In this document: one piece after another, positions 23,231 through 64,000 of the stretch
How the letters are laid out: each line of letters starts with the position of its first letter
Numbering within the stretch: position 1 is the stretch's first letter
Origin: Escherichia phage ECML-359
Direction: 5' to 3' (one strand)
Length of the DNA: 64,000 nt
Sequence record: OL631482.1
Made by a program: the position numbers and the translations under genes
Notes under the pieces: model-generated
What the model was told of the DNA's origin: nothing
The model's input: the letters and a program-made list of their open reading frames with translations, nothing else
The model's database searches: none

Positions 23231-25945
23231 TTAAAAATCAAACATATCAAAAAGAGATGCTTTTTTCTCGTAATCAACCTTAGCTGCTTCAGAGAACCCT
23301 GTCAATGGCTTAACAAAAGTCTTCTGGAACAGTGTGTTGTAGTCCATCCACTGCAAGACTTGGTCACGAATTTCAATCGGGAGTTCAATCCCTGATGGCC
23401 ATGCAATCACGGTTTCGCCAAACGGGTTACCAACTTTAAGAGGAAGTACATACACCTTTTCCCCTTCCATGATTTGTGGAACAGTCTTCATACCTTTAGT
23501 TGCACGCATGTAAGCGAGCACGCCTTTGATATGAGCTGGGCACTTAAATCCAGGGAAACCACCCTCATTATATTTCTGGATGTTGTTAACTGATGATACA
23601 CCTGCGATGGTCATGTAGTTAAGCTCATTAAATTCCTTGTTGAATTCCTTGAAGTATGTCTGCAGAGATTCTTCACCTTCTTGCAGCATACGGCGGATAC
23701 ATTCTTTCAGAGCTTTCTGACATGCTTTTGGTGTACTCGACTTTTGAGTTTCCAGGCCCATGATTTTCAGTTTCGGAACAGCGTATCGTGTGCCTTCCAT
23801 ATCGTACACGTTCAGAGCATAACGCTTCTTCGCCGTCCAGAATCCACCAACACCTTTAGAACCAAGTGGAGGACATGCAATCGCTTCACGGTCCATAAAC
23901 ATAAGGTGCTGTTTGTTGTTCATGTATTCAGCCAGCTCACGGAAAGCTTTATCGATTGCCGGTTCCAGACGGTCTTTCGCGAACTTGTCCATGAAGTCAA
24001 CCAGGTGGTTTGTATCGCGGAATTTAGATTCGCCACCAACCTTTTTAATCAGGTTATCGCACTGGATATAAATGGAGTCAGTATCGCCATAGAATACATA
24101 TGTTTCACCACTTGTACCACAAACACTATCAAAATATTCGTTAACTTTACGCTCAATCCACTGCAATGCAAGTTGTCCGAAAGATGTAATCGCGGTTGCA
24201 TTTCGCAGGTCAAAGTAACGGAACCAGATATTACCCAGAGCGCCATAACAACTGTTGATAAGCAGTTTACGGTTAATCTGTGCGGTCATGCCTGCGACTT
24301 CTTCCATCTGCGCTTTGTACAACATACCATTCAGAACTGTTTGATTCAGACCGTGCAAGGTTGTTTTCATATTGTCATCGAAGTCATAACGATAATCAAC
24401 TTCAGGCTCGGTTGTACCAGTTCCTGGATTACGCAGGGCTTCCTTAATCAGTTCACCATTACGTTGAGCCGCAAGCATATAACCTTTGTGCTCTTTACGC
24501 TGATTAAACACCTTGGTGACTTCTGTTGGAATAATACCCGCAACATCTTTAAAATACATCATACCGTTTGGAGCACAACTAAATGTATCAGATGGACGGT
24601 CAGCAGTTCCTGCAATGTATTCATACATCGGCGCTGGTGCAAATGACCCGGCAATCGTTTCTGGACTGATGTTAATCTGTCGGATGATGCTCGGATACAG
24701 AGATGTTAAGTCACAGCTCATAACGTATTTGTATGCGTTCGGAATAGGTTCCTTAACAAATGCACCTGGGAACGATTGACGAACATGCGATTTGGTTTCC
24801 GGAATGACTTTGTTTTGAGTCTTCAGGCTGTTAAAGATAATCGCATCCCAAGTTTTGATTGGGCTGAATACAGACTGAATCTGCATTTTTGCGTAATAAC
24901 CCATTGACTGGCTAAGGTTAATAAACTGGCGCTTACGGTCAATCTGTACAACACGATAAACATCGATGATGTTATAAGAAATATACCGTTGGTGATTTGA
25001 TTCACGCAGTTTAGAAATCGGACCATCATATGGGAGTTTACCAACACCCAGCTCAGATTCCGCAACATAATCCAACGAATAAGATGGCTGGTTTGTGAAG
25101 CTGAACTTTTTATACAGGTCCAGATAATCCAGAACAGAGATACCCAGAATCTGAATGATTTCTTGTTCTTCACCGAATCCGTTGTTAATGACCTTAACTT
25201 TTGTACGACGATGTGGACTCAGACGTTTTGCTGTAGCTTCACCAAACACATTTTTAAGGCGGTTGTAGATATATGGAATATCAAACTTCTCGATGTTCCA
25301 ACCAGTTAACATAACCGGAGTTTTCTCGTTCCAGAATACCAAATACTGCTGGAGCATTTCTTCTTCTGAATCGAAAGCCATATAAACAATTTTTTCCAGG
25401 ATTTCTTCAGGGACTTCATCGCCGCCATCTTCTTGCAGCTTAGCAGCAATATCGATAGACCATTGCTCCACAGTGGCGTATGGTGAGCTCAAAAGGTCAA
25501 AGACATAGAATTTATCGTCTACCGAATCATAGTGCGTCAGGGCATCAATAGGGTGACGTGCTTCAGACGGCTCAGGGAACCCATCAGGAGATGTCACCTC
25601 GATATCGAAGTTAGCCACACGGATTTTACTTGAATCGTATTTGATTTCGTGCGGGTAACGGTCGGACAAGTATGCGAGTTTAAAGTCATCCATACCCATA
25701 GCTTCGAGACCCATGTCATTCATTCGCTTCATCCACTGGGATGCATCACGCATGGAGTCGAATTCTTTTTTCACACAACCTTTATTATAGATGTCTGTAT
25801 ACTTTGCAGCCTGGTCTTCGCGGGCATGCATAAACAAGCATGGAGCATAAGGGATTTCACGAACACGTTCATGACCGTTCTTGTCAATGTATCGTTCGAG
25901 TAGATTGTCACCGATTTGTTCGATAGTTAAATAAAATTCTTGCAT
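23231..25945 (-). CDS. 43: DNA polymerase gp43 (family B, 904 aa)
   Basis: Exo motifs (FDIE), polymerase motifs (SLYPSII, YGDTDS). Confidence 0.95.
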   Translation of the reverse strand: MQEFYLTIEQIGDNLLERYIDKNGHERVREIPYAPCLFMHAREDQAAKYTDIYNKGCVKKEFDSMRDASQWMKRMNDMGLEAMGMDDFKLAYLSDRYPHEIKYDSSKIRVANFDIEVTSPDGFPEPSEARHPIDALTHYDSVDDKFYVFDLLSSPYATVEQWSIDIAAKLQEDGGDEVPEEILEKIVYMAFDSEEEMLQQYLVFWNEKTPVMLTGWNIEKFDIPYIYNRLKNVFGEATAKRLSPHRRTKVKVINNGFGEEQEIIQILGISVLDYLDLYKKFSFTNQPSYSLDYVAESELGVGKLPYDGPISKLRESNHQRYISYNIIDVYRVVQIDRKRQFINLSQSMGYYAKMQIQSVFSPIKTWDAIIFNSLKTQNKVIPETKSHVRQSFPGAFVKEPIPNAYKYVMSCDLTSLYPSIIRQINISPETIAGSFAPAPMYEYIAGTADRPSDTFSCAPNGMMYFKDVAGIIPTEVTKVFNQRKEHKGYMLAAQRNGELIKEALRNPGTGTTEPEVDYRYDFDDNMKTTLHGLNQTVLNGMLYKAQMEEVAGMTAQINRKLLINSCYGALGNIWFRYFDLRNATAITSFGQLALQWIERKVNEYFDSVCGTSGETYVFYGDTDSIYIQCDNLIKKVGGESKFRDTNHLVDFMDKFAKDRLEPAIDKAFRELAEYMNNKQHLMFMDREAIACPPLGSKGVGGFWTAKKRYALNVYDMEGTRYAVPKLKIMGLETQKSSTPKACQKALKECIRRMLQEGEESLQTYFKEFNKEFNELNYMTIAGVSSVNNIQKYNEGGFPGFKCPAHIKGVLAYMRATKGMKTVPQIMEGEKVYVLPLKVGNPFGETVIAWPSGIELPIEIRDQVLQWMDYNTLFQKTFVKPLTGFSEAAKVDYEKKASLFDMFDF

Positions 25946-59895: not shown

Positions 59896-60479
59896 TTACG
59901 GCATTCCTCAATAAAGGAGTTCAATGTATTTTTCTTAGTGATATCGTCATATACCTTTTTAACTTTAGAAATACGAAAAGGTACTTCAATAACCATAGTC
60001 CATAAAAATGATGCAATAAGCCCAGCGAGAGCAGTAGAAAAGCACGCACCCATTACAGCTACGGGTGCTTCATTTTTGCCTGTCAAGAAAAACCACAGAA
60101 ACGGTAAAAATAAGATTCCAGCCCAGGCATAAAACCTGGAACAAATTAACTTATCAAATTCATCACTCCAGGTACGAAATCCATATTTCTTGCTATAAGA
60201 AATTAATGGGTCTGGTGTCTGTTCTTTGAGCGGTTCTGGTTGATGCCCATTAATAATGTATCCCATTTTATATTCCTTAATTAAAAGCTCTTTCACATGA
60301 CGATTGCATCGCGACCAATCAACATTTTCCACCTTGATTCCTTCATCACCATCATCAAGGTTCGCCCAATATTTTTTGGTAATCATAAATTCATCTCTTG
60401 ATACAATTATACCTGCATTTTCTGCCCGGCGGATGAAGTTTACATCAACACCCATGCACCCGGGCTCATAAAGGGCCAT
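59892..60479 (-). CDS. hypothetical protein (195 aa) with two C-terminal TM helices
   Basis: Hydrophobic segments ILFLPFLWFFL and AGLIASFLWTMVI. Confidence 0.4.
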   Translation of the reverse strand: MALYEPGCMGVDVNFIRRAENAGIIVSRDEFMITKKYWANLDDGDEGIKVENVDWSRCNRHVKELLIKEYKMGYIINGHQPEPLKEQTPDPLISYSKKYGFRTWSDEFDKLICSRFYAWAGILFLPFLWFFLTGKNEAPVAVMGACFSTALAGLIASFLWTMVIEVPFRISKVKKVYDDITKKNTLNSFIEECRK

Positions 60480-61171
60480 TACCAGCCCTCCATAGGGAAT
60501 TCCAGATATACTTGAGCATTAACGCGGATTTCATTTGTAATCTTTTTAACACGGTCAGTATTACGAGACACACGACCAAACCAGCGCCACCCGTTACTTA
60601 CTGCGCGAGAACCTGTATGCCATGTCTGCCAATCAAACTGGAGCAATGTGCGGTCAGGAGCATCCCACTTGGTTAATTCATTGGACTCAATTTTTTCCAG
60701 AACTTCTTTATGCCACTGACGATAGATAAGTTCGCCTTCAGGAATCTGACTAAATTGTGCAGTTCCGGTTGCAAAATAAGTAGGACACACATCAGCGTTA
60801 ACAAGACCAAGAATATGTTCAGAATGGTAACGAGGATTATCATAATCAGGTTGCCCTGCGGTAATAAAGTGTTGACCCACCGGAATATCCGGACGTGGTA
60901 CATCGTCATGGTGATAACCTGGGATAGCAGGATACCAACCAGGCATCAGCATATGAACCCGAGAATCAAACACCAAATTATCGGGGCCATCAGTCCATTC
61001 TTTTGGTAGGTTATCAAGAAAACTGCGCGTGATTGGACCACCATGCTCATACGCAAATTCTGGATAGCAGTTAAAGAACATTGGTTCATTTTTGATTTGG
61101 TCATTTTGTACGTTATGTGCAAAACCACCAACTGCACGAGCTTGACTATTAAAAGTTTTCGGACCGTTCAT
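60479..61171 (-). CDS. hypothetical protein (230 aa) with HHDD...H cluster
   Basis: GYHHDDVP ... YHSEHILG, possible metal-binding site. Confidence 0.4.
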   Translation of the reverse strand: MNGPKTFNSQARAVGGFAHNVQNDQIKNEPMFFNCYPEFAYEHGGPITRSFLDNLPKEWTDGPDNLVFDSRVHMLMPGWYPAIPGYHHDDVPRPDIPVGQHFITAGQPDYDNPRYHSEHILGLVNADVCPTYFATGTAQFSQIPEGELIYRQWHKEVLEKIESNELTKWDAPDRTLLQFDWQTWHTGSRAVSNGWRWFGRVSRNTDRVKKITNEIRVNAQVYLEFPMEGW

Positions 61172-61230: not shown

Positions 61231-62190
61231 TTATTTTTCGAAAGGACGAATTAAATGCTGGTTAGCTTTGAAACGTTTAACATAGTCTTCATGACCCAGG
61301 GTGTTGTACATATTAACCACTTCCTGGTAATGTTCCCAGGCATACTCGCGGAACCATCCAGAAGTAATGGAGGTGCAGACTTTTTCCAGCGCAATATTGA
61401 AGCTCACGGATGGAGAGATATTGAACTCATTGGGAACCTGCGAACGCTCCAGAGCGAGTACACATGCTTCTTCATAAACCCCTGCCAGTTTAATAATCTC
61501 AGGGAGTGCTTCAAATTTTTCACGCGAGGTCATAACTTCTGAATCATCCTTCATATAGAACTTATATGCAGGCTTATCAGCAAGCGCCACGGCCTCGTGG
61601 ATGGAGTCATGGTCAAGGGTATAGATTGTATCATTAAAGAAAGTTTTCTTGCCCACGTCTAGTTTAGGGTGACTATATGACAATGTTTCTGCCTGGCGCT
61701 GCAGCATGATTTTATGCAGTTCGTCATTAAGAACAACACCCTTATTGCGAAGGTAATTAATATGACTCATTGTCTTCAGGAAGAATGGATTGTTCTTCAG
61801 GTAACGATGAGACAGTTTAATTGCCAGACAAATATCAGGAGTCGCCCAATAGAAACCTGTAAGACGGTCTTTCTTAATATGATTTTCAGCGTATTTCAAG
61901 AGACGATAACTTGAGGTGAAATCTTCATCTTGAAGCTCACCAGTAATTTCTCGTACGTTAGTCAGGGCACGGACAATATAAGCTTCAAAATAGGTTTCTT
62001 TTCCATTGTACATACATTTAAAAGCTTGGACATCAGGGTTATCCACAGGAACATGAGCACCGAACATACGTGCTTTAAAGTGGTTCCAGGAGCCCTGGTC
62101 AGCGATAAAGTCCCAATCAGAGTTTTCAATTTTCTGACTTTCAATCAGACCAGCGTTATGTAATGCACGAGAACCAATAACTAACATCAT
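61231..62190 (-). CDS. hypothetical protein (319 aa)
   Basis: Minus ORF. Confidence 0.45.
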   Translation of the reverse strand: MMLVIGSRALHNAGLIESQKIENSDWDFIADQGSWNHFKARMFGAHVPVDNPDVQAFKCMYNGKETYFEAYIVRALTNVREITGELQDEDFTSSYRLLKYAENHIKKDRLTGFYWATPDICLAIKLSHRYLKNNPFFLKTMSHINYLRNKGVVLNDELHKIMLQRQAETLSYSHPKLDVGKKTFFNDTIYTLDHDSIHEAVALADKPAYKFYMKDDSEVMTSREKFEALPEIIKLAGVYEEACVLALERSQVPNEFNISPSVSFNIALEKVCTSITSGWFREYAWEHYQEVVNMYNTLGHEDYVKRFKANQHLIRPFEK

Positions 62191-62381
62191 AATATTTTCC
62201 TCATTAGTAAAGACGAGTTACTTCATATTTTCCAAGTGCCGATTTTTTCGCTTCAATTCGTGAGGCAGCAAGATTGGCGGCCTCTAGTGAAGAAAATTGA
62301 ACCACTTGAGAAGTATTCTGTCTTACTCCACCTTGCGGGTGAGTGACAAAAACAATAAGAACATTATACATAATATTTTCC

Positions 62382-62582
62382 TCAAATAATACCGTATGCG
62401 TAAATATCTCTTTTAATGCAGGAAACTACTTCTTCCAAAGAATCACAAACACGTTCTGTGGCGCCTGCGTAATCACCACTGATGGTTACTTTAATACCAT
62501 CAGAAACTTCCTGGAGATTAACCTCCAGTTGGTTGACTTTGGCTTCGTTCAGAACTTTGATTAATTCGTTTGCGATAGACAT
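62382..62582 (-). CDS. hypothetical protein (66 aa)
   Basis: Minus ORF with PeSL upstream. Confidence 0.4.
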   Translation of the reverse strand: MSIANELIKVLNEAKVNQLEVNLQEVSDGIKVTISGDYAGATERVCDSLEEVVSCIKRDIYAYGII

Positions 62583-62662
62583 TTTTATTCTCCTGTTCTG
62601 ATAACGCGATTGTCATCAGTTGATAGGAGTATAGTAACACAGTTTTTTAGACTTGTATACTG
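62583..62662 (-). promoter_or_regulatory. PeSL-like early promoter cassette (divergent copy)
   Basis: GTATACAAG ... CTATCAACTGATGACAATCGCGTTATCAGAACAGGAGAATAA. Confidence 0.45.
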
Positions 62663-62991
62663 CTTCTACAATATTCTAAAAATAATTTATCGTTGTCTAC
62701 CTTATCCCAACGACGCCAAGATGGATTCCAGACCAGAGCGTTGTCACCGCAATCATTGAGCTTAAAGTGGTCGTAGTACATAGCTATATGTCTGGTTTCG
62801 TCACCAGAGAACCCCAGTATATGCTCACCGTGGGTATGATACATATGATGATGCATTGAGAGGTCGCATTTGTAAAACATCTCACGTTTACCACGAACGA
62901 ACAAGAAGGCTTGCCCATTCATATAGAATTCTTTATCTGTTTTCAAAAGATATTTGAATACCGAATCTTTATGCATAATTCCTCCTACCAC
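62647..62991 (-). CDS. hypothetical protein (114 aa)
   Basis: Minus ORF. Confidence 0.4.
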   Translation of the reverse strand: MVGGIMHKDSVFKYLLKTDKEFYMNGQAFLFVRGKREMFYKCDLSMHHHMYHTHGEHILGFSGDETRHIAMYYDHFKLNDCGDNALVWNPSWRRWDKVDNDKLFLEYCRSSIQV

Positions 62992-63006
62992 ATCCTTGTG
63001 ATTAAA

Positions 63007-63234
63007 TTATTTTCCTAACGAAATACGAGTAGGTTTTTTACCGAAATATTCTTCATAGGAACCATCTAAACGACCCGCTTTAGACCGACAATACGAATCA
63101 TACTTTTTGTAATAAGTCAACTCGTTATTATAACGTGGATGTCTATCAGCCATAATAATACTTAATGGCCAACCTTTGGCATAATCACGAAGACCATTTA
63201 TTTTACGAATATATCTTTTCTTTAATTTTAGCAT
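63007..63234 (-). CDS. hypothetical protein (75 aa)
   Basis: Minus ORF. Confidence 0.4.
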   Translation of the reverse strand: MLKLKKRYIRKINGLRDYAKGWPLSIIMADRHPRYNNELTYYKKYDSYCRSKAGRLDGSYEEYFGKKPTRISLGK

Positions 63235-63452
63235 GAGCTCGGGTGCCAGATTTTACCGTCAGGTTGAGCAACGAAGGTACGACCAGCTTCTTCACCATAA
63301 CAAGAGCTGTTCAGCCAGTCTTCAAGACGAACCTCACCATCATATTCGTCAAGCTCAATACCGAAATCTTGAGCGTTAGCCATATCTTTTACTTTCTTAT
63401 ACAATGCAGCCAGTTCAAGTGCTGCTTTTTCTAATTCATTAATATCAGACAT
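63228..63452 (-). CDS. hypothetical protein (74 aa)
   Basis: Minus ORF. Confidence 0.4.
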   Translation of the reverse strand: MSDINELEKAALELAALYKKVKDMANAQDFGIELDEYDGEVRLEDWLNSSCYGEEAGRTFVAQPDGKIWHPSSC

Positions 63453-63461
63453 TTTTATTCC

Positions 63462-63674
63462 TTAGCATTCGTAAGAGGATGATACCCAAGAGGTACCACT
63501 AATAGTAATACAACCGTTATAAAGCGTGATATGTCGTTCTAAGTCACGAACACCATCAATGTAGATATCAGCTTCTTCGCGTTCTTCTTTACAAATCTGG
63601 ATAACGTTTTCAATAGCTGCCGCGGCAGTACGGATTGCACAATCTAATTCACGAGACATATAATTCCTTAACAT
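63462..63674 (-). CDS. small protein ending WVSSSYEC (70 aa)
   Basis: Member of tandem family with conserved C-terminal tail. Confidence 0.45.
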   Translation of the reverse strand: MLRNYMSRELDCAIRTAAAAIENVIQICKEEREEADIYIDGVRDLERHITLYNGCITISGTSWVSSSYEC

Positions 63675-63949
63675 TCAGAAGAGGAGGACACCCAACCGCC
63701 ATTTTCCAGGTCAGTTGTATAGTCATGAGTGTTAACAATAGCCCATTCAGGATGACCATGTTCTTCCCAATGAGCAAGGTCAGCTTTCAAGGCGCCAGGA
63801 GAATAATAGTCACCGCCCATACCGCGAGCAGGGTATATATTAAAATGAGTCTCATATTTGTTTGCGATTTCCTCGGCACGACGAATAGCTTTATGGATAT
63901 CATTTACTGCGTTAGCCAGTTCTTTATTTTTACGGTAATCATTCATCAT
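63668..63949 (-). CDS. small protein ending WVSSSSEC (93 aa)
   Basis: Member of tandem family; a third copy (…AWVSSSAMC) begins at 63958 and runs off the window. Confidence 0.45.
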   Translation of the reverse strand: MMNDYRKNKELANAVNDIHKAIRRAEEIANKYETHFNIYPARGMGGDYYSPGALKADLAHWEEHGHPEWAIVNTHDYTTDLENGGWVSSSSEC

Positions 63950-64000
63950 AGCGTTTCCTTAGCACATTGCCGAAGAGGAGACCCAAGCACCAACTGTAAC

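What the first reader, a model, noticed from the sequence alone, without database searches (positions are those of the whole stretch)
63462..64000. Tandem small-gene family with a conserved C-terminal WVSSSxEC tail
Three consecutive minus-strand genes (the third truncated by the window edge) end in near-identical tails (…SWVSSSYEC, …GWVSSSSEC, …AWVSSSAMC) while their bodies differ. A shared C-terminal Trp-Ser-rich Cys-terminated tail suggests a common targeting, processing or partner-binding signal.
Basis: seen in the sequence. Interest (0 to 1): 0.45.

Follow-up and report, generated by a model that had tools for sequence, protein, structure and literature searches.

The report
Cys-tailed small proteins beside phage nucleotidyltransferase
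The shared Trp-Ser-Ser-Cys tail is real and marks a large, undescribed family of small acidic phage proteins that almost always lie in tandem just upstream of a MenT/ANT-like nucleotidyltransferase gene, which suggests a two-part phage system of unknown function.

Summary
The window (a VR7/EAWsc9-like T4-type coliphage) holds four tandem minus-strand members, not three: a 3' fragment (…WVSSSAMC), a 93-aa gene (…WVSSSSEC), a 65-aa gene (…WVSSSYEC) and an overlooked 74-aa gene with an internal WLNSSC and a terminal WHPSSC. With tails removed the bodies are only faintly alike, but they share one architecture: an N-terminal helix, a hairpin, then a G-x-W strand.

The tail (W-x1-3-S-S-x0-3-Cys at the C-terminus) is the hallmark of a phage-only family. 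It has about 220 clusters at 50% identity, a median pI of 4.4, and no Pfam family, no solved relative and no paper.

In 78 of 80 IMG/VR loci chosen only for a homologue of the window's 319-aa DUF7277+DUF7275 protein, one to five tail-bearing ORFs lie on the same strand upstream. That is 223 ORFs against 0.1 expected by chance. The converse test gave 29 of 29. The 319-aa protein models as a Pol-beta nucleotidyltransferase; its nearest solved folds are MenT1, ANT(2'') and TglT/MenT3.

My best reading, which is inferred, is that the exposed Ser-Ser-x-x-Cys end is the element through which these proteins engage that enzyme, as regulator or as substrate. No evidence supports a packaging or secretion signal.

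The parts
63959..64000 (-). 3' end (last 13 codons plus stop) of a type A family member, cut by the window edge; the tail WVSSSAMC is at 63962-63985
   Evidence: Translation. It is 100% identical to VR7 ORF142c (96 aa) by tblastn. The full gene is seen in L002 and L004.
63668..63949 (-). 93-aa family member (type D, a paralogue of type A); the tail WVSSSSEC is at 63671-63694
   Evidence: PHROG 899, E = 1e-19. AlphaFold2 pLDDT 82; the tail strand G84-S88 joins the beta-sheet and the last residues are of low confidence.
63462..63659 (-). 65-aa family member (type C); the tail WVSSSYEC is at 63465-63488
   Evidence: PHROG 4882, E = 2e-36. Annotated as 65 aa in JS98 and VR7.
63228..63452 (-).
   Evidence: PHROG 899, E = 2e-9. 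In 35 homologues the columns D-W-x-S-x-C-Y-G-E, F, W, S and terminal C are invariant.
61231..62190 (-). 319-aa predicted nucleotidyltransferase (Pfam DUF7277 + DUF7275), the conserved partner gene of the family
62204..63234 (-). Four small ORFs (75, 109, 66 and 55 aa) inserted between the family array and the nucleotidyltransferase gene; not family members and not conserved with the module
   Evidence: They are found in only 1-7 of 80 nucleotidyltransferase loci. PHROGs 7065 and 9796 have unknown function. No terminator-like or promoter-like signal above background separates the genes.

Best explanation
The tail marks a phage-specific family of small (about 60-150 aa), acidic proteins. They are encoded as arrays of one to five diverged paralogues immediately upstream of, and probably co-transcribed with, a MenT/ANT-like Pol-beta nucleotidyltransferase (the 319-aa DUF7277+DUF7275 protein at 61231-62190).

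Shown here: the family exists; the tail with its terminal Cys is nearly invariant; the gene linkage holds across unrelated phage groups; the partner has a nucleotidyltransferase fold with conserved catalytic motifs.

Inferred: in each small protein the G-x-Trp part of the tail is the last beta-strand that closes the fold, and the Ser-Ser-(Ser)-x-x-Cys end projects as a flexible, hydroxyl- and thiol-rich peptide. I propose that this end is the common handle by which all paralogues reach the active-site cleft of the nucleotidyltransferase. It could act as a pseudo-substrate plug that regulates the enzyme, as the small antitoxin MenA1 does for MenT1. Alternatively it could be a true acceptor whose Ser hydroxyls are nucleotidylylated or phosphorylated. 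The diverged acidic bodies would then give each paralogue its own target or timing.
For: 1. Linkage. 78 of 80 IMG/VR loci picked only by nucleotidyltransferase homology (39-97% identity) carry tail ORFs. That is 223 on the gene strand against 3 on the other strand and 0.1 expected from shuffling. All 222 ATG-called ones lie upstream, with a median gap of 883 nt.
2. Converse. 29 of 29 loci found with the type B protein have the nucleotidyltransferase gene 0.05-2.3 kb downstream, though most are contigs already in the first set. All 5 hits in genome and MAG contigs also carry tail ORFs.
3. Spread. The same arrangement occurs in Phapecoctavirus, Otagovirus and Acinetobacter T4-like phages. In Menderavirus the tail ORF lies just downstream instead.
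4. No third partner. Clustering of all neighbours shows no other gene family travelling with the pair: the nucleotidyltransferase is in 89 of 89 loci, the main tail-family cluster in 79, and the next family in 35 or fewer.
5. Tail conservation without circularity. HMMs built from bodies with the tails cut off retrieve 133 ORFs, of which 131 end in Cys. In the 1.84-billion-protein library, 130 of 143 new representatives end with the tail, and 10 of the other 13 have a tail-like motif with one extra residue after the Cys.
6. Structure. In the AlphaFold2 model G84-S88 is a sheet strand and the last residues have pLDDT of about 54.
8. Precedents. A 68-aa helical protein encoded upstream blocks MenT1 (PMC10435456). 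Ser/Thr (auto)phosphorylation controls AbiEii and MenT3 (bioRxiv 10.64898/2026.01.19.700257).
9. Charge. The family is acidic, with a median pI of 4.4, which fits docking on the electropositive tRNA-binding face described for MenT enzymes.
Against: No interaction, modification or toxicity was tested, and I could not run a complex prediction. Gene linkage shows a shared function, not that the tail is the contact.

A MenA1-type antitoxin uses its helix, not its C-terminus, to bind the toxin. Arrays of up to five antitoxin-like genes have no precedent.

Very distant homologues in Streptomyces, Gordonia, Roseobacter and Vibrio phages have no tail genes nearby. The enzyme therefore does not need them in principle.

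Type B carries a second, internal copy of the motif, which suits a structural or ligand-binding role as well as an enzyme-docking one.
Confidence: 0.45

Rival explanations
1. The tail is purely structural. The Trp strand closes the small fold, and the Ser-rich end with its Cys forms a dimer interface, disulfide or metal site. The proteins act on their own (for example as nucleic-acid mimics or sponges), and their linkage to the nucleotidyltransferase reflects a shared pathway rather than contact through the tail.
For: The AlphaFold2 model puts G-G-W-V-S into the beta-sheet. Type B has two copies of the motif, each ending in Cys (invariant C51 and C74). This suits two neighbouring strands that bring two thiols together. 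The family is acidic. About 6% of members tolerate one residue after the Cys.
Against: A merely structural strand rarely keeps an invariant S-S and a terminal Cys across bodies that have diverged beyond BLAST detection. Most members have only this one conserved Cys. The final residues are modelled with low confidence, so they look exposed rather than packed.
Confidence: 0.2
2. The small proteins are independent host-directed effectors or anti-defence decoys. For example they could mimic the tRNA acceptor end and inhibit host tRNA-targeting toxins. Their common tail would bind a conserved host target, and the phage nucleotidyltransferase would be a separate tRNA or RNA-end enzyme in the same counter-defence cassette.
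For: Tandem, fast-diverging paralogue arrays in a hyperplastic early region are typical of arms-race genes. T4 itself lacks them between e.2 and e.3. Some copies are truncated in RB69 and mar005P1. Distant nucleotidyltransferase homologues sit beside polynucleotide kinase, RNA ligase 2, peptidyl-tRNA hydrolase and tRNA genes. MenT-type enzymes act on tRNA 3' ends.
Against: The hosts range from Enterobacteria to Aeromonas, Pseudomonas, Acinetobacter and Stenotrophomonas, yet the only invariant companion is the phage's own enzyme. No host target is known. The association with RNA-repair genes is anecdotal.
Confidence: 0.15
3. The tail is a targeting signal for capsid packaging, secretion or proteolysis.
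For: A conserved terminal peptide on otherwise different proteins is how many sorting signals look. Internal head protein genes lie in the same genome region.
Against: T4-type capsid targeting sequences are N-terminal (own knowledge). The proteins have no signal peptide or transmembrane segment and are acidic. Part of the tail is buried in the fold. The only conserved neighbour is an enzyme gene, not a transporter, protease or capsid gene.
Confidence: 0.05
4. The proteins are RiPP-like precursors. The Ser and Cys of the tail would be converted to a lanthionine, AviCys or similar cross-link, and the body would act as the leader.
For: S-x-x-C at a C-terminus resembles AviCys-forming cores (own knowledge). 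An enzyme gene is linked.
Against: No dehydratase, cyclase, flavin decarboxylase or radical-SAM gene travels with the module. The spacing of Ser to Cys varies (WxSSSxxC, WxxSSC). Some members have a residue after the Cys, which is incompatible with oxidative decarboxylation. The bodies are folded domains with high model confidence.
Confidence: 0.03
5. The similarity is a by-product of a repeated DNA element, such as stop codon plus Shine-Dalgarno or a recombination scar, not of protein function.
For: A 33-nt direct repeat covers the tails, and the TAAGGAA stop plus ribosome-binding junction follows three members.
Against: The repeat is only 67-85% identical and differs mainly at synonymous sites. 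The peptide motif persists in phages with unrelated DNA sequence and different junctions. There is no Rfam match.
Confidence: 0.01

Closest known systems
MenAT1 toxin-antitoxin system of Mycobacterium tuberculosis (MenT1 nucleotidyltransferase toxin plus the 68-aa antitoxin MenA1)
   Different: This module lies in virulent phages, not bacterial chromosomes. It has one to five diverged paralogues instead of one antitoxin. It has an invariant W-x-S-S-x-x-Cys C-terminus that MenA1 lacks; MenA1 binds through its helix and its C-terminus is disordered. The enzyme is about 120 residues longer, has a large helical DUF7275 domain, and does not match DUF1814 by sequence. Toxicity was not tested.
AbiE / MenAT3 type VII systems (DUF1814 nucleotidyltransferase toxin neutralised by antitoxin-induced Ser/Thr phosphorylation)
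   Different: Those antitoxins are COG5340 proteins of 136-290 aa with a winged helix, and the modified Ser is on the toxin itself. Here the Ser-rich element is on the small partner. No AbiEi-like gene is present.
HEPN-MNT type VII systems (the MntA nucleotidyltransferase poly-AMPylates its partner HepT)
   Same: A minimal nucleotidyltransferase covalently nucleotidylylates a small partner protein encoded next to it (own knowledge). This is a model for the idea that the tail is a substrate.
   Different: HepT is a HEPN RNase with an Rx4-6H motif and is modified on Tyr. The tail family has no HEPN motif. The PADLOC and Pfam scans found nothing.
Aminoglycoside and lincosamide nucleotidyltransferases ANT(2'') and LnuA
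   Different: They are small-molecule resistance enzymes of 158-175 aa without partner proteins. The phage enzyme has an extra 190-aa conserved domain.
CitX / MdcG with citrate-lyase or malonate-decarboxylase acyl carrier protein
   Same: From own knowledge, not tested here: a nucleotidyltransferase-superfamily enzyme attaches a nucleotide-derived prosthetic group to a Ser of a small (about 100 aa) acidic carrier protein.
   Different: No sequence or fold match was obtained. The modified Ser of those carriers is internal, not in a C-terminal tail.

Membership tests
PHROG 899 / PHROG 4882 (phage proteins of unknown function) | Significant match to the family profile | tested here: met
   93-aa protein: phrog_899, E = 1e-19. 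74-aa protein: phrog_899, E = 2e-9. 65-aa protein: phrog_4882, E = 2e-36.
Pfam DUF7277 + DUF7275 (partner protein, 61231-62190) | Both domains score above the gathering threshold | tested here: met
   91.8 and 255.1 bits against a cut-off of 27.
MenAT / AbiE nucleotidyltransferase toxin-antitoxin systems | The toxin belongs to DUF1814/AbiEii (COG2253) by sequence | tested here: not met
   The Pfam scan at E <= 1 gives only DUF7275 and DUF7277. Single-sequence and profile searches against PDB sequences find no MenT or AbiEii.
MenAT / AbiE nucleotidyltransferase toxin-antitoxin systems | Pol-beta nucleotidyltransferase fold with conserved G-[ST]…D-x-D catalytic motif | tested here: met
MenAT / AbiE nucleotidyltransferase toxin-antitoxin systems | Partner (antitoxin) gene directly upstream, on the same strand | tested here: met
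   All 222 gene-strand tail ORFs lie upstream of the enzyme gene, with a median gap of 883 nt.
MenAT / AbiE nucleotidyltransferase toxin-antitoxin systems | The enzyme alone arrests growth, the partner neutralises it, and the enzyme adds nucleotides to tRNA 3' ends | not testable with these tools
   This needs expression and tRNA assays.
Phd/YefM-type antitoxin fold | Significant structural match of the small protein | tested here: inconclusive
RiPP precursors with a C-terminal Ser/Cys core (lanthipeptide or AviCys type) | A dedicated dehydratase, cyclase, decarboxylase or radical-SAM gene in the cluster | tested here: not met
   Neighbour clustering over 89 loci finds only the nucleotidyltransferase as a conserved companion.
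RiPP precursors with a C-terminal Ser/Cys core (lanthipeptide or AviCys type) | Strictly terminal Cys and fixed Ser-Cys spacing | tested here: not met
   The spacing varies (WxSSSxxC against WxxSSC). About 6% of representatives have one residue after the Cys.
T4-type internal (capsid-targeted) proteins | An N-terminal capsid targeting sequence cleaved by the prohead protease | not tested
   The conserved element here is C-terminal. No virion proteomics were available to me.

The most novel reading that the evidence does not exclude
The Ser-Ser-(Ser)-x-x-Cys tails are acceptor peptides for the co-encoded MenT/ANT-like enzyme. This would be a phage-encoded system of protein O-nucleotidylylation, or of protein-primed nucleotide addition, on a family of small acidic, possibly tRNA-mimicking, effector proteins. 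It would be a post-translational modification system with no described counterpart, present in hundreds of large virulent phages.
Probability: 0.2. Interest if true: 0.85.

Novelty: new variant of a known kind. Interest (0 to 1): 0.62.

Why it matters
A gene pair conserved in well over 700 sequenced phages has no assigned function and no literature. These phages include therapeutic and model T4-like coliphages (JS98, RB69, VR7), phAPEC8-like phages, Pseudomonas Otagovirus and jumbo phages.

The partner enzyme belongs to the fold class of MenT/AbiEii toxins, which bacteria use to block translation by extending tRNA 3' ends. A phage version with its own set of tail-tagged small partners could be one of three things: a host-shutoff device, a counter-defence against tRNA-targeting immunity, or a new protein-modification system.

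The invariant eight-residue tail gives a simple experimental handle (delete or mutate it, then look for mass shifts), and each of these possibilities is testable.

Tried and rejected
- Sequence libraries. Pfam, NCBIfam and PADLOC scans of the small proteins gave nothing.
- PDB sequence searches. Neither single sequences nor profiles found relatives of the small proteins or the enzyme.
- Literature. Searches for DUF7275/DUF7277, RB69/JS98/VR7 ORF names, motif strings and phage MenT-like enzymes found nothing relevant.
- N-terminal extensions. Long family members (125-172 aa) have no Pfam domain in their extensions.
- The 230-aa neighbour (60479-61171). I rejected it as a third component because it is present in only 23 of 80 loci.
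- DNA or RNA element. Rejected: there is no Rfam hit, the repeat is 67-85% identical, and the differences are largely synonymous.
- Promoters and terminators. The scan showed nothing above background between the array and the enzyme gene.
- Other copies. No tail ORF exists elsewhere in the window or in the first 50 kb of VR7. The remaining 100 kb of a complete relative was not scanned.
- Homology between type A and type B bodies. The body-only profile-profile comparison is weak (hhalign P = 0.008, 30 columns). Homology between these two types therefore rests mainly on shared architecture and on single-linkage through intermediates.

Full report
**1. What is in the window**

The window matches Gaprivervirus and Dhakavirus T4-like coliphages: EAWsc9 at 96.6% DNA identity, and VR7, JS98, IME08 and SP18 at 91-94%. 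The finding lies in the variable early region between e.2 and e.3. T4 itself has nothing between those two genes.

The minus strand reads as follows:
- The last 13 codons of a gene ending VTVGAWVSSSAMC (63959-64000). Its full 96-aa form is VR7 ORF142c, 100% identical.
- A 93-aa gene (63668-63949) ending GGWVSSSSEC.
- A 65-aa gene (63462-63659) ending TSWVSSSYEC.
It has an internal DWLNSSC followed by YGEE, and a terminal IWHPSSC.

VR7 and JS98 carry a fifth copy ending GFW(Y/F)xSSMSC. Three of the stops are followed by GGAA, so TAAGGAA serves as a stop plus a ribosome-binding site for the next gene. The start of the next ORF overlaps the Ser-Cys-stop codons of the 74-aa gene.

**2. Is it more than chance, and is it protein or DNA?**

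Among 451 ORFs of at least 40 aa in the window, only these end in W-x(1-3)-S-[SGN]-x(0-3)-C. Between copies, the Val, Ser and Cys codons of the tails differ at synonymous positions. The 33-nt DNA repeat over the tails is only 85% and 67% identical. No Rfam family matches. The constraint is therefore on the peptide.

**3. Are the bodies unrelated?**

With the tails removed, pairwise BLAST is weak. The 93-aa versus 96-aa pair gives E = 8e-4, the 96-aa versus 75-aa pair gives 0.025, and most other pairs are not significant. A body-only profile comparison of type A against type B gives only P = 0.008.

Alignments nevertheless show one architecture:
- a long N-terminal helix ending A-E-x-I-A-D;
- a strand and hairpin, F-x-x-G-D-Y-G-x-G-R-T-Y-Y-P-x-G in type A;
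- a second conserved Trp;
- G-x-W-[VIL]-S-S-S-x-x-C.

Single-linkage BLAST clustering joins 177 such ORFs from 79 loci into one cluster. They are diverged paralogues, and the tail is by far their best-conserved part.

**4. The family at large**

A profile search of the word-indexed database found 89 clusters. All are from T4-like phage contigs and all are named hypothetical. The exhaustive search of 1.84 billion representatives found 220 clusters at E <= 1e-3. Nearly all are 70-140 aa long, and the match runs to the last residue.

Of 143 new representatives, 130 end with the tail. Ten of the other 13 have a tail-like motif followed by one extra residue after the Cys. To avoid circularity I built HMMs from bodies with the tails cut off. 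Of the 133 ORFs they retrieve from phage loci, 131 end in Cys.

The proteins are acidic, with a median pI of 4.4; 89% are below pI 5. There is no Pfam, NCBIfam or PADLOC match, no relative among PDB sequences, and no paper. PHROGs 899 and 4882 hold them as 'unknown function'.

**5. Structure**

AlphaFold2 with a 65-sequence alignment gives the 93-aa protein pLDDT 82 and pTM 0.71:
- helix 9-32, strands 35-38 and 46-49, helix 51-64;
- G84-G-W-V-S88 as a third strand of the sheet;
- a final S-S-S-E-C turn of low confidence (about 54).

**6. The key context: a conserved partner gene**

In distant T4-like phages (RB69-like mar005P1, Enterobacter KMB19, Aeromonas 44RR2.8t.2 and AS-zj) the genomic surroundings differ. 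The order stays the same: tail gene(s), then a gene of about 300-320 aa. In the window this gene is at 61231-62190 (319 aa; Pfam DUF7277 + DUF7275).

tblastn finds it in 731 phage records, well beyond T4-like phages. The pair also occurs together in Phapecoctavirus anhysbys, Otagovirus phiPsa347, Menderavirus BUCT608 and Acinetobacter phage AM101.

I tested the linkage systematically:
- 80 IMG/VR loci were chosen only by homology to the 319-aa protein (39-97% identity; contigs from 8 kb to 371 kb). Of these, 78 carry at least one tail ORF. One exception has only 353 nt of upstream sequence, and the other has an ORF-free gap where the genes would be.
- There are 223 tail ORFs on the gene strand and 3 on the other strand. 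Composition-preserving shuffles give 0.1.
- All 222 ATG-called gene-strand ORFs are upstream of the enzyme gene. The median gap is 883 nt, and 217 lie within 2.5 kb.
- In the converse test, 29 of 29 loci found with the type B protein have the enzyme gene 0.05-2.3 kb downstream. Most of these are contigs already in the first set, so the two tests are not independent.
- Five hits in GTDB genome contigs, all of which look like phage contigs binned into MAGs, show the same arrangement.
- Clustering all neighbours shows no third conserved component. The 230-aa gene next door (60479-61171) occurs in 23 of 80 loci, and the four small ORFs between the array and the enzyme gene occur in 1-7 loci.
- No terminator-like site separates the genes.

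The linkage has a limit. The most distant homologues, in Streptomyces, Gordonia, Roseobacter and Vibrio phages (25-33% identity, mostly over the C-terminal domain only), have no tail genes nearby.

**7. What the partner is**

In 63 homologues, D25-x-D27, E69, K125, H128, D193-H-D195 and H198 are invariant, along with many residues of the C-terminal domain. G6, S7 and R129 are nearly invariant. The N-terminal G-S…D-x-D motif is the Pol-beta nucleotidyltransferase signature.

By sequence the protein is not a DUF1814/AbiEii member.

MenT and AbiEii enzymes add nucleotides to tRNA 3'-CCA ends. They are controlled either by a small upstream protein that blocks the active-site face (MenA1, 68 aa) or by antitoxin-induced Ser/Thr phosphorylation (PMC10435456; bioRxiv 10.64898/2026.01.19.700257).

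**8. How it most likely works**

Shown: a family with a nearly invariant tail, and tight, lineage-independent linkage to one enzyme gene with intact catalytic motifs.

Inferred: the small proteins are partners of that enzyme. Their one shared, exposed feature, the Ser-Ser-(Ser)-x-x-Cys end held out from a Trp-anchored strand, is what meets it.

Two versions are open. The tail could be a pseudo-substrate plug, so that the small proteins regulate the enzyme as an antitoxin would. Or it could be a true acceptor, with Ser hydroxyls nucleotidylylated or phosphorylated; ANT and Lnu enzymes modify hydroxyls, and MntA modifies its partner protein. Their acidity fits the electropositive tRNA-binding face of MenT-type enzymes. 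The diverged bodies would give the paralogues different targets or timing.

I put 0.45 on 'the tail mediates engagement with the enzyme', and about 0.85 on the weaker claim that the family and the enzyme work together.

Rivals:
- A purely structural, dimerising or metal-binding tail (0.2). The duplicated motif with two invariant Cys in type B favours this.
- Independent host-directed decoys in a shared tRNA-related cassette (0.15). Distant homologues of the enzyme sit by polynucleotide kinase, RNA ligase 2, peptidyl-tRNA hydrolase and tRNA genes.
- A sorting signal (0.05).
- A RiPP-like core (0.03).
- A DNA-level artefact (0.01).

**9. Comparison with what is known, and novelty**

The closest analogue is MenAT1: a small upstream helical protein plus a MenT-fold enzyme. 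Membership is not established, for these reasons:
- the sequence-family criterion fails;
- toxicity and tRNA activity are untested;
- the module is in virulent phages;
- there are up to five partner genes;
- the defining tail has no counterpart in any described antitoxin.

I classify it as a new variant of a known kind, namely a nucleotidyltransferase with a small partner protein. It could be more than that if the tail proves to be a modification site (probability about 0.2).

**10. Verdict**

The partner-binding interpretation is the one the evidence favours, and the partner can be named. Function remains unproven. Interest 0.62.

Noticed in passing
L128 (Streptomyces phage Muntaha), L129 (Gordonia phage Bachita), L130 (DSS3_VP1), L131 (Vibrio phage 1.081.O): The most distant homologues of the 319-aa nucleotidyltransferase have no tail-family genes nearby. 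They sit next to polynucleotide kinase, a tRNA gene cluster, RNA ligase 2 plus a metallophosphoesterase, or peptidyl-tRNA hydrolase. This is an anecdotal hint that the enzyme acts on tRNA or RNA ends.
   Followed up: partly
window 60479-61171 (-): A 230-aa protein with no Pfam or NCBIfam hit lies directly downstream of the nucleotidyltransferase gene. One relative annotates it as phytanoyl-CoA dioxygenase. It is conserved in T4-like relatives and in Aeromonas phage AS-zj, but present in only 23 of 80 nucleotidyltransferase loci, so it is probably not part of the module.
   Followed up: partly
P0030 (RB69 ORF139c) and L005 4304-4531 (mar005P1): Some family copies are truncated and have lost the tail. 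RB69 ORF139c is 71 aa and ends …SQWYEK, against 101 aa in close relatives. The mar005P1 type D copy ends …TNTTTT. Individual paralogues therefore appear dispensable.
   Followed up: no
window 63228-63234, and the stops at 63462, 63668 and 63959: The genes are tightly coupled. The ATG of the next ORF (63007-63234) overlaps the Ser-Cys-stop codons of the 74-aa gene (TCATGCTAA). Three family genes end in TAAGGAA, a stop plus Shine-Dalgarno for the following gene.
   Followed up: partly
window 62647-62976 (-): A 109-aa His-rich ORF (…MHHHMYHTHGEH…; PHROG 9796, unknown function) is inserted between the family array and the nucleotidyltransferase gene. It is found in only 7 of 80 related loci.
   Followed up: no
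L002 (Escherichia phage EAWsc9, PQ341120.1): The public annotation of the closest relative gives these tiny genes implausible names: 'malate synthase', 'transposase', 'Ig-like domain-containing protein' and 'CAZy families GH13 protein'. These are evidently automatic mis-annotations. Only the 'nucleotidyltransferase' name for the 319-aa gene agrees with my fold result.
   Followed up: partly
window 23597-24646 (+): A 349-aa stop-to-stop frame contains WTVSSSC ten residues before its end. It is not at the terminus and is not near the cluster. I took it as a chance match and did not examine it further.
   Followed up: no
L009 1-283 and 6200-6933 (Escherichia phage anhysbys): In the Phapecoctavirus locus, a NinI-like Ser/Thr phosphatase gene lies about 1.7 kb upstream of the first tail gene (about 2.7 kb from the enzyme gene), and a Sir2-like gene lies about 2.3 kb downstream of the enzyme gene. 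The phosphatase may be relevant if tail serines are phosphorylated or nucleotidylylated, but the family is seen in only 14 of 89 loci.
   Followed up: no
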